Shown here: positions 5,166 through 12,775 of the stretch, piece after piece
Layout: each line of letters starts with the position of its first letter
Numbering within the stretch: the stretch's first letter is position 1
Assembly (NCBI GenBank): GCA_032718475.1
Contig: JAUCBJ010006581.1
Location: 1-49,817, forward strand
Origin: Nemertoderma westbladi
Taxonomy: Eukaryota > Animalia > Xenacoelomorpha
Direction: 5' to 3'
DNA: 49,817 nt
The notes under the pieces: generated by a model
Database searches by the model: none
What the model saw: the letters and a program-made list of their open reading frames with translations, nothing else
What the model was told of the DNA's origin: nothing
Made by a program: the position numbers and the translations under genes

Positions 5166-5711
5166 CTAATCACCAACACCTAAAGTCACAACACCAAACA
5201 TTAATAAATAATTAACAAGTTTACTAAATATAGGGTAATAAATGTGAAATTTGCTAGGTGAACACATTAAAGTACATTTACCAGTATGAAAGCAACAAAT
5301 GACTACGGTATTATTTATTCTTATTTTGCAATTATTAAAAATTTCAGGTTCATATATAACTTGAAGTTGTACATTATCAAAGACAACATAAAACCCGGTA
5401 TTGTTTATCAATAACCTATAGACTACAGACTTAATACTAAAAATATAAGTACATAAATTAACAGATTTTAAAATCAAATTAATACTAGTTTTATCAAATA
5501 TATGCTTTTTTACTTTTTGGAAATTATACTTACTGCCTAATAATGTAATACGACCATTTTTAAATATTAATAATGTGGCACCAAATATCTTATATATAAA
5601 CTGATTTGGTTTGAGTATGTGTTTACCAGATAATTGATTTTTTAATTCTTTAAAATTAATCGCTGACACTTGCTGGCAACTTACATTCTTATTGACTATC
5701 TGATAGTTCAT
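5166..5711 (-). CDS. TATA-box-binding protein (TBP)-like, divergent, virus-encoded
   Basis: 181 aa, the size of a TBP core. Both repeats are recognisable: ATLLIFKNGRITLLGSK (cf. TALIFSSGKMVCTGAK) and YEPEIFNNCKIRI...VICCFHTGKCTL (cf. YEPELFPGLIYRM...LLIFVSGKVVL). It overlaps the PolB 3' end by 23 nt. Confidence 0.85.
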   Translation of the reverse strand: MNYQIVNKNVSCQQVSAINFKELKNQLSGKHILKPNQFIYKIFGATLLIFKNGRITLLGSKYNFQKVKKHIFDKTSINLILKSVNLCTYIFSIKSVVYRLLINNTGFYVVFDNVQLQVIYEPEIFNNCKIRINNTVVICCFHTGKCTLMCSPSKFHIYYPIFSKLVNYLLMFGVVTLGVGD

Positions 5712-8700
5712 TGTTTGGTTCCCGATAAATAGGTATATTGTTTTTCTTTATCGGTTTTTCGACCTTTGTTTGATAGTGACCCCAGGGAAGCGAATGATTT
5801 TTATTAACCCAATAAAGTTTATCGTCAAATGCGCTGAGAGCAAACTTGTCTCGTGCTATAGTGTACACTTTGTGTAATTTGCTCTGAAATTGATGTATTT
5901 CTTTTGAAATTTCTTCGTTTGAGTTATATGCTCTTACATAATCTTCGTGGCAAATATTTTTTTCCACAACAGCTCTTGTAATACCTTTTGCTCTACGAAT
6001 ATTGGATTCATTGAATTCCAAAATTGAATATAATTTTGGTCTTAAAAATACTGCTTGTTTAATTTCACGTGAGGCTAGTTCGTCTTTACAGTAATAGAGT
6101 CTGGATTTATTTTTATCGCTGTAGAGAGGGTGATCCTTGGGGTAATTGGATGTATCTAAAATATTATTTTTAATTAAGGCTTTTAAGAAATTACTCTGCG
6201 ATGTATTATAGTAACAACCTATTAAAGAGTCCGTATCTGATGCTACAATTTCAATTCGACAGTTTAATTCTTTCTCAATAGGTAGCAATTTATCATAATA
6301 CAGCTGATACATATCCAATTTAGCCAAGTCCAAGACAGTACTACCTACATAGACTGGTTTATCGAGAGTTACAGAGTCTTTCACTAATAAATGTCCTGAT
6401 AAGGAATCGTTATAAATCATGAAATTTTCGTGATTTATACGTTTGATCAATAAATCGCACTTCTCTTTACTATTAGCGATACGAAAGTTGCATCGGTCCC
6501 GTATTTTCTCAATAGTTTTTCCAAATAACGAATTATTCAGAAGCTTTGCAACAGCTGTTTCAATATACGTTTTTGCTATTCTCCTTTGATTAATATTAAA
6601 ATCTATATAGGGTTTAAATACAAAGTCTTGATGGAAAGAATATAATTTATGGAGCTTAGTAACAATTAAACCTTGTTTTATATAAAATTTTAACAGTTTT
6701 AAATTTACATGATAGAATTCTTTATCAAATTGTGTCAACATAAGTTTCGGTGCACACATCTTATACTTGCTATTAGTGCCTCTTTGTTTACATACATGAT
6801 TATATTGTTCCCTCATATATGGTGAAAGCATTGTCTCATTTATACTTAAATGTTCTGGGGCTAAGGGTAGTTCTAATGTACGATCGTGAATATCTTTGGG
6901 ATATTTCAAATCGCAAATTAAGAAAAACCCAATATCACCTTCAGTATTAAGATTTATCAAATAGTTTATTAGTTCTTCTGGAGCAGCATTCTCTAAATAT
7001 GTAATGTTGACTTGTTCAAAACCTGAAACAGGTAGCTTTTTACTTAAATTTCCCGAATACAAGGAATTAAAATCTATATTAAAAATATGACACTCTTCCT
7101 TGCTTGGATCATAATTATCTGTATCTGGTATATTTGATTCTATGTAATGCTTTCGACAGAATGAAACCCCTCCTCTAATAGATGCTTCAAAATCTCTATA
7201 TGTTTGGTAATCTTTTATTAATGCTAACTTACATTTATTGTATTTCAGGGCGCAATCATAAGTGAAAGCTGCGATACTACAATAATAAACTACTTCTAAT
7301 TCGTAGTTTTGTCTACATACTCTCCTAAAGTTCTCAAATATATCAGCGAGGAGACAAACATCGAGTTTTAAGTATGCTAAAAGATAATCCTTGAGATTCA
7401 CACATTCAAACTGACTCCATGATGCGTCGGCAAAACTATATTCCTCGGGTGTACAGGTATTTTGTGTTAATTTACTATAAAATTTGTCTATTGATGGTAA
7501 TTTCGAATCATTGAATTTATTTAAATCTGTCAGGTACTCGTAGGGAAATATACCTTTTCGTTTAATTGTTGCATTATTTAAATTTGGATAAAAATATTTC
7601 ATTTGCTGTTCAGTAATTGGTAGAACTGATGTTATATCCTCGCTGTCTATATCCTTTGTTGAACAATCAACTAAAGTACTTAGGGAAAAGGATAAAAATT
7701 GATATGTGTCTAAGACACGTAGCTCAATCTTAGTTTTTTCATTTTTCACAGGTATATGCATACTTAGTGAAATATACCTTTCAGAATTTTTAGAGATTAC
7801 CTTTATATCCCAATCGGAATATCGGTTGTTGGTAAAACCAACTTGTAAAAGAAATTGCAAATCGTAGAGATTACAGTTGTGTGCAGCGAGTATATACATG
7901 TGTCGTTTCAACGATAAAGAGCGGTTACATGCGTTACAAGCGGCCGCTATATAGTTACCAGTAATATGTGAGTGATGTTTGTTTTTCTCAGACTTATCCT
8001 TAAATAAAACATTGCAATAAAAGCAAGTTTTAGCTTTCCAAAAACTTAACTTATCTACATCACTAAGTATTATTTTTTCGTGTGTATGATCTTCCGACCA
8101 CTTATATAATTGGGTGATGTCATTATATACAGAGTCTAAAAAGTCTTGAATACAGTTGTTGTCGATTGTTTTTGTAAAGGTCTTCAAATAAAATTTTGGT
8201 GGATTGATTAATTCGCTACTAGGGACAATTAAATAACTTACAGCGCATGGAATATGATTCTGAATAAATTTACTGTTGATGGCTGGCTCCAAAATAGATT
8301 CTATGTCAAAATATATTACAAACAATGCTGGTAATGTTCTGTTTAAATTTCTAAAGCTAATGTGAGTTCTTTTTTCAGACGGTAGCTTCTCAACTTGACT
8401 TTTACCTCGATAACAAGCAAGACGGTGACGTTCTAGAACATCCTTGGTGTAGAAAGGCGCCAAACACCGTTCACAAAAATGCCTACCACGAGTATGAAGA
8501 GCTCTCGTATTCATCAAACGATTCAAGTTAGTTATGCAAACATAATGTGATTGTTTACTCGTATTCTTATTTTTTACAAGTAATATATTCAATAACTCTT
8601 TATCTGGAGTGATTTTACTAAATGGTGCCTGTCTTAATATAGATACTCGATTGTTGTTGTAGAGTAATAAATTAATTATATATGCTGAATTCTGTTTTTC

Positions 8701-10889: not shown

Positions 10890-12775
10890 TTAAATTAACA
10901 ACAGAACACTGATTTATTATTTCGAGTGGTGGTGATAACAATTCTAATATTTCTGTCTTACTCTGAAGCAATAAATTAATGAGTGATTTGTTTAGAATTT
11001 GACATTTGCCTTGCTTCTGAATATATACATTTTCAGTAATAACACAGGTGGAAATATTTAACTTTCCTCTTGTAAATTCTATATTAGGATAAATATTACC
11101 TCTTGAAAATGGTGATTCCTTTTGTCGGTTGATTAATATTTCTAAGACTAATATTTCTGCAGCAGTACTGGTGCCGGTTCCGGTACAAAAATACAGAAAT
11201 GTCTGCTTTATACCTACCTACATCTGTACATACAATACAGCAAAATAGTGCTATATATACTAATACTGGTACTGATAGCCTGAGAGAACAGCAGTAGAGA
11301 AACCGGTAGCATGGAAACCTAACATTCGATTTTTGGAGGACATAAAAAATAAAAAAAAAAAGGACAAAAAAAGGATTTAAACGGACAATAAAAATTATTG
11401 CGATTAAATACACATTGAAGTAAGTGCTTTGCTTCAAGGGTAGCTAATCAATCTTCTTGCCTAAAACATTAGCTTGAGTGTATGAGGTTCAAAATTTTAT
11501 ATTTTTTATGTTGTGATCAGGCTACTGAATAATTTGAATCATCAGAATGAGTTAAACAAAATGTCTAAACATAATACCATCCTTTGAGTTTATGCTCATC
11601 TGGTCAGAGATTTAAACGATCAAAAAAGCATATAAAAATATGTAATTTAAGATGCACAAATTTATACGTGCATTAACATAAATTAATATTTAATTTACAG
11701 CACACACAACAGAGCAATAGGGCACAATGCTGGAAAAGTGTTATCTTGTAGCAATATGAGGCTTTCACTAATGCCCTAATAATATATCAGATTACAGTTT
11801 AATTTAGGTGAGAAATCAGTTGAACTTTGGTTCAATTTTCTCCTGAAGAAGTTTTCATTTTGATTACATTTCACCATATCAGAACGCTTTTCTCTCATTT
11901 CAATAGTAAATTTGAAAAAAAATAAAAGATTTGACATAATAGTTAATTAAGTTAAGAAAAAGTGAATAAAGTAAAAAATTGGTGGTCCTTTTTTAAGTAA
12001 AATATAAATCCTTTCCTAACCTTCATCTTTAATTCATCCATTGGTACGTAACTGTCAGGGTCAGTGAATGGTACGTAACTGTCAGGGTCAGTGAATGTGT
12101 TCTAATAGATATCCCCTGTCCAACCAGCTACCCCATAGATTCCGTTTAGATATCTCCTGTTCAAACAGCTACCCCATAGATGCCGTTTAGGTTATAGAAG
12201 GCACACCACCGATACTACCAATCTCCTTTATGGATTTATGCCTTTGTGGCACAGATTCCAAGGGACCAATCGTTATCTCTATTGTATGAGAGATAGGGGA
12301 TCCATTGAGGTAGACACTCTTACCAGGACTCCATTATTAAGTCCAGGACAAGTATTAAGTCACCAGCAGTACTGTTGAATCCAGATATATCTAGAGTGTA
12401 ACTAGTGGTAAAATTCCCATAATGGGGCTAAAGCTGTGGACGCCACACCCTCAGCATGCAGTGAATTTATTTAGTTTATATTTAGAAGAAAGCCATCAAA
12501 AAGCAAGCATGGTTCCGTCCTCGACCCGGATAACATAGTCCACCTCCCATTCTGATGGCATGGCCATAGCCATGCCACAGGGGAACCATATAACCATCCA
12601 ACAATCATCTGATTGGTGGTCACACACATAGAATCGAACATTGGGTCCACAGATAGTCTCCTCCAATGCACCAACCTAGGGAGGATTTCTGCCCATAACA
12701 CAAGTCACATTATTCAGAGTATTCCCATATCATCACCTTCAAATTGTCAATACCAAACTGAGCTGAGAAGTAAAA

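What the first reader, a model, noticed from the sequence alone, without database searches (positions are those of the whole stretch)
5166..11170. Minus-strand block may be a self-contained replication/transcription module: PC4-like, iterated enhancer, TATA-Inr, PolB, TBP
Seen: a PC4-like ORF, a repeat-containing spacer, TATA+Inr at 31-nt spacing, polB and TBP, all co-oriented and opposite the structural block. Known: cellular PC4 is both an ssDNA-binding protein and a Pol II coactivator acting at the preinitiation complex. Inference: an early unit supplying an SSB/coactivator and a TBP that switch on the capsid block, i.e. a minimal viral transcription cascade in a small integrating virus.
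Basis: inference. Interest (0 to 1): 0.7.

Follow-up and report, generated by a model that had tools for sequence, protein, structure and literature searches.

The report
Polinton with its own TATA-binding protein
A damaged copy of a virus-like jumping element (Polinton/Maverick) in an animal genome carries a divergent TATA-binding protein gene that marks a whole lineage of such elements and likely steers the host's RNA polymerase to their capsid genes through a variant TATA word, whereas the proposed PC4 partner and enhancer could not be confirmed.

Summary
The block is the replication arm of a damaged animal Polinton. Confirmed: a TBP-fold gene (5166-5711), a protein-primed PolB split over two frames, TATA plus TCATTC initiator (A at 9839), four or five spacer repeats, and a real gene at 10257-10889. 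Not confirmed: that this gene is PC4-like (profiles negative, fold tests inconclusive), that the repeats are an enhancer, or that the order is conserved (TBP abuts pPolB in 0 of 16 relatives). The firm result lies in relatives. All 10 loci of 10 kb or more in one pPolB clade carry the TBP, against 0 of 21 outside it. It keeps the TFIIB-binding glutamates and has Pro for one DNA-bending Phe (17 of 17). Virion, ATPase and integrase genes there often follow a lineage-specific word (ATAAAC, 22 of 32 genes, 1.85 expected; TTAAGC, 14 of 31), mostly 32 nt or more before the ATG, rarely before TBP or pPolB. Likely mechanism: host-driven early genes make a TBP that recruits host TFIIB and Pol II to late promoters; untested. 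In this copy the word is only a post-hoc YATAAA. The scan noted TBP-bearing Mavericks with promoter words before, on other DNA.

The parts
5166..5711 (-). Divergent two-lobe TBP-like protein, 181 aa; three of four DNA-bending Phe, Pro at the fourth, YEPE TFIIB-contact motif kept; long branch and loss of a Gly kept in 16 of 17 family members
5689..8931 (-). [quoted passage not shown]
8880..9704 (-). N-terminal piece of the same polymerase (C2H2 finger region, then a weak match to the N-terminal part of an intact relative); the gene is broken in the 8880-8931 overlap
9836..9872 (-). TATA box plus TCATTC initiator, predicted host-type early promoter of pPolB, predicted start at 9839 with a 135-nt leader
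9940..10215 (-). Four to five degenerate repeats (TAAAR-N8-10-TGTAAA-N4-ACTTT), private to this element; function unknown, enhancer or origin-type sites are guesses
10257..10889 (-). Real element gene of unproven fold, beta-rich; PC4-like by eye only; first ATG at 10835
10849..11217 (-). Overlapping ATG-less frame, possibly the lost 5' part of the previous gene; runs into a high-copy host repeat
3..3383 (+). Virion block cut by the window start: minor-capsid-like, basic core-like, major-capsid-like, adenain protease, DEDD-type nuclease-like ORFs; each of the four complete genes has YATAAA within 90 nt upstream (post hoc)
3700..5100 (.). About 2.3-3 copies of a 396-nt repeat plus a GC-rich short array between the two blocks; likely a later insertion

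Best explanation
The block is the replication arm of a damaged animal Polinton whose lineage carries its own divergent TBP, which likely acts as a late-gene switch by binding a variant TATA word in front of the virion genes and would recruit the host's TFIIB and RNA polymerase II there. Shown: the TBP fold, its confinement to and inheritance with one pPolB clade, the kept glutamate pair, the Phe-to-Pro change, and enrichment of lineage-specific words at TATA distance in relatives. Inferred: host TBP starts pPolB at the TATA-initiator at 9839; the element's TBP is made early; the changed N-terminal lobe accepts a C-containing 3' half (ATAAAC, TTAAGC) and escapes TFIIA, Mot1 and TAF1; late genes follow. 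The 10257-10889 gene is most likely a replication accessory such as a single-strand binder, not a TBP coactivator, and its fold is unproven. This copy probably cannot replicate on its own, since its polymerase gene is split.
For: TBP family in 16 of 105 pPolB loci; 12 of 12 scanned pass Pfam TBP; family profile hits solved TBPs at E=8e-30. pPolB tree of 100 loci plus the window: the 15 TBP loci in it and the window share one clade (support 1.0); 10 of 10 loci of 10 kb or more inside carry TBP, 0 of 21 outside. TBP and pPolB distances agree (rho 0.79, 0 of 5000 permutations, 15 loci). Against two canonical TBPs: first Phe is Pro in 17 of 17, the other three Phe kept in 16, 17 and 17, the glutamates in 16 and 17, helix-2 basic patch not conserved. 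PMC7221094 (passages) ties those glutamates to TFIIB and the basic patch to TFIIA, Mot1 and TAF1, and says giant-virus TBPs lost the glutamates and bring their own TFIIB; no TFIIB family hit among 104 proteins scanned here. Words: ATAAAC before 22 of 32 genes (1.85 expected) in six loci and 6 of 12 (0.46) in two more; TTAAGC before 14 of 31 (1.0) in three loci. 46 of 50 ATAAAC and 21 of 23 TTAAGC hits lie 32 nt or more before the ATG; ATAAAC precedes ATPase 4/5, integrase 4/6, capsid 4/5, protease 4/5, but TBP 1/8 and pPolB 1/5. Unbiased per-locus search: significant word in 6 of 10 long TBP loci, 1 of 22 others. 24 of 27 listed capsid-gene differences to a related copy fall on third codon positions.
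Against: No binding, start-site or expression data. Inside versus outside the clade is one evolutionary contrast, so word and TBP may co-occur by descent alone; loci within groups are related. Four of 10 long TBP loci show no significant word, and a group of five TBP loci (21 genes) shows none. L089, with no TBP in its 12.3-kb contig, has ATAAAC before 3 of 7 genes (0.44 expected). In the window YATAAAC precedes 0 of 4 virion-block genes; YATAAA precedes 4 of 4 (p=3e-4, chosen after looking; one is only 11 nt from the ATG) and cannot be told from a host TATA box. The window's TBP is a very long branch, lacks a Gly kept in 16 of 17 and scores low on codon use, so it may be decaying. In 3 of 16 relatives TBP is not on the pPolB strand. 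A strict TATA-initiator pair precedes pPolB in only 4 of 25 relatives.
Confidence: 0.6

Rival explanations
1. One reading: a self-contained ordered module in which a PC4-fold protein serves as single-strand binder and Pol II coactivator beside the TBP, and the spacer repeats are its enhancer.
For: The ORF shows a PC4-like pattern by eye (beta strands then G-F-N-L-T and a helix) and is a real gene. In the sister subclade a small tandem-repeat family sits just before TBP in 8 loci and is weakly PC4-like (profile comparison E=0.066 over 57 columns; 3 of 16 members beat all 300 shuffles). Repeats and TATA-initiator exceed chance.
Against: No profile support for the window's ORF; no homologue in 105 loci; clear PC4 genes occur in loci without TBP; the window's own subclade lacks the small tandem family; order and repeat motif not conserved.
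Confidence: 0.12
2. The words are read by the host's own TBP or by a helper virus's polymerase, and the element's TBP works as a decoy that soaks up TFIIB or blocks promoters to damp host transcription.
For: TATAAAC is close to a normal TATA box; the window's own word looks canonical; L089 has the word without a visible TBP; loss of one bending Phe could weaken DNA binding while the TFIIB face is kept. TTAAG resembles the baculovirus late motif (recalled, from no call).
Against: Three Phe and the first Asn are kept across deep branches; the two TBP subclades go with different words; the spacing has a sharp onset at about 32 nt, as for a TATA-position element rather than an initiator.
Confidence: 0.2
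3. The TBP gene is passenger cargo without a role in the element's own gene control, and the co-orientation reflects the usual two-block Maverick layout.
For: Two-module layout is described as universal for vertebrate Mavericks (PMC8097293, passages); TBP position varies.
Against: Present in 10 of 10 long clade members and inherited with pPolB; invariant functional residues.
Confidence: 0.08

Closest known systems
Polintons/Mavericks, adintoviruses and MELD viruses (Starrett et al. 2021, PMC8502044, sections 3.1 and 3.4 read; Barreat and Katzourakis 2021, PMC8097293, passages)
   Same: Protein-primed PolB, adenain protease, capsid-like genes, two opposed gene blocks; relatives carry rve integrase and packaging ATPase. 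The legend of Starrett's Fig. 5 already lists a gene 'similar to TATA binding proteins'.
   Different: That paper gives TBP only as a figure label; in the passages seen neither paper describes a clade-wide TBP, its residues or promoter words.
Beta- and gammaherpesvirus TBP mimics, KSHV ORF24 (PMC12529657, passages)
   Same: A viral TBP-fold protein reads a variant TATA word (TATT) to drive late genes with host Pol II; this is what the Polinton system likely works like.
   Different: ORF24 keeps all four Phe, lacks the TFIIB glutamates and needs five more viral factors. The Polinton protein is a bare 150-200 aa saddle with the glutamates kept and one Phe replaced.
Giant-virus TBP-like proteins (Ravarani et al. 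2020, PMC7221094, passages)
   Same: Divergent viral two-lobe TBPs that lost the N-lobe regulatory patch; the nearest Atlas clusters are largely viral.
   Different: Those diverged at the TFIIB contacts and often come with a viral TFIIB; here the contacts are kept and no TFIIB family was hit.
PC4-like fold family (Janowski and Niessing 2020, PMC7549692, passages)
   Same: Clear tandem PC4 genes occur in two related pPolB loci; the window's ORF resembles the pattern by eye.
   Different: The window's ORF fails every sequence test and its fold is unresolved.

Membership tests
Polinton/Maverick | [quoted passage not shown] | tested here: met
   35% identity over 1090 columns to an intact relative with Pfam PF03175; catalytic motifs present; gene split in this copy
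Polinton/Maverick | Adenain-type maturation protease | tested here: met
   Pfam Peptidase_C5 E=1.1e-5, above cut-off
Polinton/Maverick | Double and single jelly-roll capsid proteins | tested here: inconclusive
   Homologues in related loci (E=1e-46 and 8e-9); fold not tested; the capsid labels rest on gene order and recalled family layout
Polinton/Maverick | rve integrase and packaging ATPase | not testable with these tools
   The element runs off the window start and no genome is held; both are present in relatives
Polinton/Maverick | Terminal inverted repeats and target duplication | not testable with these tools
   Only one end could lie in the window; no matching arms
TBP family | Two-lobe saddle fold | tested here: met
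   Pfam TBP two stretches; family profile to solved TBPs E=8e-30; Atlas 0.95
TBP family | Four intercalating phenylalanines of canonical TBP | tested here: not met
   First Phe is Pro in 17 of 17; other three kept
TBP family | C-lobe glutamate pair for TFIIB | tested here: met
   E in 16 of 17 and 17 of 17
TBP family | N-lobe basic patch for TFIIA, Mot1, TAF1 | tested here: not met
   Columns not conserved
TBP family | Sequence-specific binding of a TATA-type element | not testable with these tools
   Needs binding or reporter data
PC4-like proteins (ORF 10257-10889) | Sequence match to PC4 profiles | tested here: not met
   Pfam none at E<=10; 88-protein profile none at E<=20; 30 of 60 shuffles as good; single-repeat profile gave no domain
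PC4-like proteins (ORF 10257-10889) | Four-strand sheet plus helix (whirly/PC4) fold | tested here: inconclusive
   Single-sequence model pLDDT 36; Pur-alpha at rank 15, Z 4.2, rmsd 3.1, 53 aligned, within background
PC4-like proteins (ORF 10257-10889) | Single-strand DNA binding, coactivation | not testable with these tools
   Needs bench assay
Herpesvirus-type viral pre-initiation complex | ORF24-like protein with Pol II-binding domain and five partner factors | tested here: not met
   The gene encodes only a 181-aa TBP core; analogy, not membership

The most novel reading that the evidence does not exclude
A whole lineage of animal Polintons runs the smallest known late-gene cascade of a eukaryotic DNA virus: one 170-residue TBP with a Phe-to-Pro change reads a private promoter word that has shifted between sublineages (ATAAAC, TTAAGC, perhaps YATAAAT here) and plugs straight into host TFIIB and Pol II, giving natural orthogonal TBP-promoter pairs.
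Probability: 0.45. Interest if true: 0.8.

Novelty: new variant of a known kind. Interest (0 to 1): 0.58.

Why it matters
How Polintons time their genes is open: they encode no RNA polymerase and particles are barely studied. A clade-defining TBP with lineage-specific promoter words gives a direct test (cross-pair reporters, start-site maps), would argue that these elements have a viral early-late programme independent of giant-virus helpers, and would supply natural altered-specificity TBPs for work on TATA recognition. This particular copy is damaged and adds mainly a deep, divergent branch.

Tried and rejected
No genome is held for the window, so other copies and the element's ends could not be studied. 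Direct homologue searches with the window's TBP found nothing: 0 of 41 candidates, 0 among 1.84 billion representatives, one irrelevant PDB row; relatives appeared only in loci fetched by pPolB. Single-sequence models were poor (TBP pLDDT 42; disputed ORF 36). Fold searches gave no match at E<=0.001 and best Z of 5.7 and 5.3. The model of the true TBP failed to rank TBP first and also drew Pur-alpha rows, so the Pur-alpha and SsgA-like rows for the disputed ORF carry no weight either way. The disputed ORF gave Atlas scores of at most 0.83, no PHROG and no viral contig; it matched neither the small tandem family nor another accessory family of its subclade. Sequencing runs: no RNA holder listed; the one run is contigs of uncertain kind and cannot show start sites. 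TBP-led scans of viral contigs gave none or four loci with other TBPs and no match to element genes. A complex prediction of TBP with the small tandem protein of L038 could not be run because the queue was full, so binding is untested. Considered and judged less likely: a natural terminal-protein/vOTU split as described for a coral polinton (PMC11161782, passages), because the break falls inside a stretch shared with an intact relative and the downstream frame's first ATG lies after the NDCF motif (reading NDCF as the vOTU cysteine is recalled). Iterated repeats before pPolB are not general: 3 of 20 relatives beat all 30 shuffles, one a TG run, two AT-rich. A palindrome score for the repeats was uninformative.
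Full report
What the region is. The first 11.2 kb of the window is an AT-rich, gene-dense stretch cut by the window start. The plus strand carries five tightly packed ORFs, one an adenain protease (Pfam E=1.1e-5), the others homologous to genes of related loci that also hold rve integrase and packaging ATPase. The minus strand carries the block in question. The flanking DNA holds a Pao retrotransposon, another reverse transcriptase and satellite arrays, so the host is an animal, not identified. No genome is held. 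The element is a Polinton/Maverick; integrase, ATPase and termini could not be checked in this copy. Of 27 listed differences to a related copy in the capsid gene, 24 fall on third codon positions (the tool showed 40 of 179 differences), so the family was under purifying selection.

Checking the observation. The TBP-like ORF is real. The polymerase is real but split over two overlapping frames at 8880-8931; an intact relative aligns to both pieces in order (the N-terminal match is weak, E=0.016), and relatives carry the C2H2 fingers on the same chain. The spacer repeats exceed chance at 22 and 30 nt (0 of 200 each) but not at 36 nt (22 of 200). ORF 10257-10889 has the element's codon use. The frame upstream has no ATG and runs into a high-copy host repeat; one contig of a related copy differs from the window in the overlap of these two frames, so this gene too may be damaged in this copy.

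The PC4 claim. I built a profile from 88 tandem PC4 proteins seeded by two clear PC4 genes in related loci. The window's ORF scored no better than its shuffles, had no Pfam, PHROG, PDB or Atlas match and no homologue among 3041 ORFs of 105 loci. Its single-sequence model (residues 1-153) had pLDDT 36, and fold searches were inconclusive; a control model of the true TBP was as uninformative. The claim is therefore neither shown nor excluded. The two clear PC4 genes lie outside the TBP clade.

The TBP in relatives. pPolB-led scans gave 105 loci (80 of 146 metagenome hits kept; 25 viral). Sixteen encode a TBP-like protein; all 12 scanned pass Pfam, and the family profile hits solved TBPs at 8e-30. 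In a FastTree of the polymerase domain (100 loci plus the window, midpoint root; L007, L035, L065, L067 and L102 dropped for short or missing matches), the 15 TBP loci present and the window form one clade with support 1.0. All 10 loci of 10 kb or more in it carry TBP, 0 of 21 outside; shorter contigs cannot be scored. TBP and pPolB distances correlate (rho 0.79). This is one contrast, not many. Against two canonical TBPs, the family replaces the first bending Phe by Pro (17 of 17), keeps the other three, keeps the TFIIB glutamates and loses the helix-2 basic patch. PMC7221094 (passages) assigns those functions and notes that giant-virus TBPs lost the glutamates. The window's protein is the most divergent member (branch 4.74, place unsure).

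Gene order. TBP is on the pPolB strand in 13 of 16 loci, adjacent in none, and the window's two-block layout recurs in 6 of 10 loci with a capsid gene. In clade members with DNA upstream of pPolB no homologue of the disputed ORF appears. The spacer motif occurs once in 105 loci. A strict TATA-initiator pair precedes pPolB in 4 of 25. The 'self-contained module' in its stated order is thus private to this lineage.

Promoter words. Earlier notes of this scan (unchecked AI notes on other genomes) suggested a shared word before virion genes; I tested this on my own loci. ATAAAC precedes 22 of 32 genes in six loci (1.85 expected) and 6 of 12 in two more; TTAAGC precedes 14 of 31 in three loci (1.0 expected); five other TBP loci (21 genes) and seven TBP-less viral loci (31 genes) show no significant word. 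Distances begin sharply at about 32 nt (46 of 50; 21 of 23), and ATAAAC is common before ATPase, integrase, capsid and protease genes but rare before TBP (1 of 8) and pPolB (1 of 5). An unbiased search found a significant word in 6 of 10 long TBP loci and 1 of 22 others. Against this, L089 has ATAAAC before 3 of 7 genes without a visible TBP, and the window shows only YATAAA before its four complete plus-strand genes, picked after looking and not separable from a host TATA box.

Mechanism. Most likely (0.6): the host machinery starts the early arm at a conventional TATA-initiator; the element's TBP binds the variant word, recruits host TFIIB through the kept glutamates and so brings Pol II to late genes, free of TFIIA, Mot1 and TAF1. 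That the N-lobe Phe pair contacts the 3' half of the TATA box, where the words depart from the consensus with a C, is recalled structural knowledge and fits, but was not tested. All functional steps are inferred. Rivals: decoy TBP with words read by host or helper (0.2), the full PC4-coactivator-enhancer module (0.12), passenger cargo (0.08). The complex prediction that could have probed a TBP-PC4-like contact could not be run.

Relation to what is known. A TBP-like gene in a MELD virus is named in a figure legend of PMC8502044 (sections 3.1, 3.4 and passages read; its one held supplement had no hit) and its preprint 10.1101/697771 (passages; supplements closed and could bear on this). Term searches within PMC11161782, PMC11131425, PMC8097293, PMC11296320, 10.1101/2023.08.22.554363 and 10.64898/2026.06.19.733378 gave no TBP, TATA or PC4 passage for the terms used; in PMC11662393 'PC4' is a cluster label. 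Library searches (listings only) showed no paper on a Polinton TBP regulon; the library lacks most subscription papers. It works like the herpesvirus TBP mimic (PMC12529657, passages) but is not a member of that system.

Verdict. Observation partly confirmed; interpretation partly supported. New variant of a known kind, interest 0.58: the TBP-and-word system is a testable and apparently unpublished feature of a Polinton clade, already noted elsewhere in this scan, while this copy is damaged and its PC4 and enhancer parts remain unproven.

Noticed in passing
L020, L034, L035, L036, L038, L040, L043, L048 (between pPolB and TBP): A small tandem-repeat protein family (16 members in 11 loci, often two genes in a row) lies directly before TBP in one subclade; weakly PC4-like, fold not predicted.
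   Followed up: partly
L008:12917-13486, L008:17647-18138, L031:10804-11151, L052:12317-12943: The window's own subclade carries other small accessory proteins near TBP that look like OB-fold single-strand binders by eye (recalled resemblance); no PDB or Pfam support.
   Followed up: partly
window 2784-3383: DEDD-type nuclease-like ORF (label by eye) with a weak match (E=0.001) to a family found in several clade members, next to TBP in some.
   Followed up: partly
window 5659-5747: One contig of run X1 skips 87 nt across the pPolB end and TBP start; ends are not intron-like.
   Followed up: no
window 9705-9839: The predicted 135-nt leader holds a short upstream ATG at 9777 and ends in a pyrimidine-rich TTAG just before the ATG, as a small leader intron might.
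   Followed up: no
window 10156-10170: One spacer repeat contains ATTTGCAT, an octamer-type site like that in adenovirus origins (recalled); the other copies deviate.
   Followed up: no
L060:4766-5221; L052:13477-13974; L076:986-2080 and 7996-8847; L008, L068, L003, L056: Accessory cargo in related loci: Bcl-2, ubiquitin-conjugating enzyme, two deoxynucleoside kinases, KilA-N proteins.
   Followed up: no
window 12767-15416, 20926-26172, 31979-36065: Host mobile elements: a reverse transcriptase fragment, an ORF1-like gene, a Pao/BEL retrotransposon, and a zf-AD-like ORF between long inverted 160-nt arrays; they point to an animal host.
   Followed up: no
window 30226-31834, 42277-46137, 46418-48416: A 30-nt GC-rich array of 54 copies open in two frames, a 1475-nt triplicate, and 10-nt and 19-nt arrays.
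   Followed up: no
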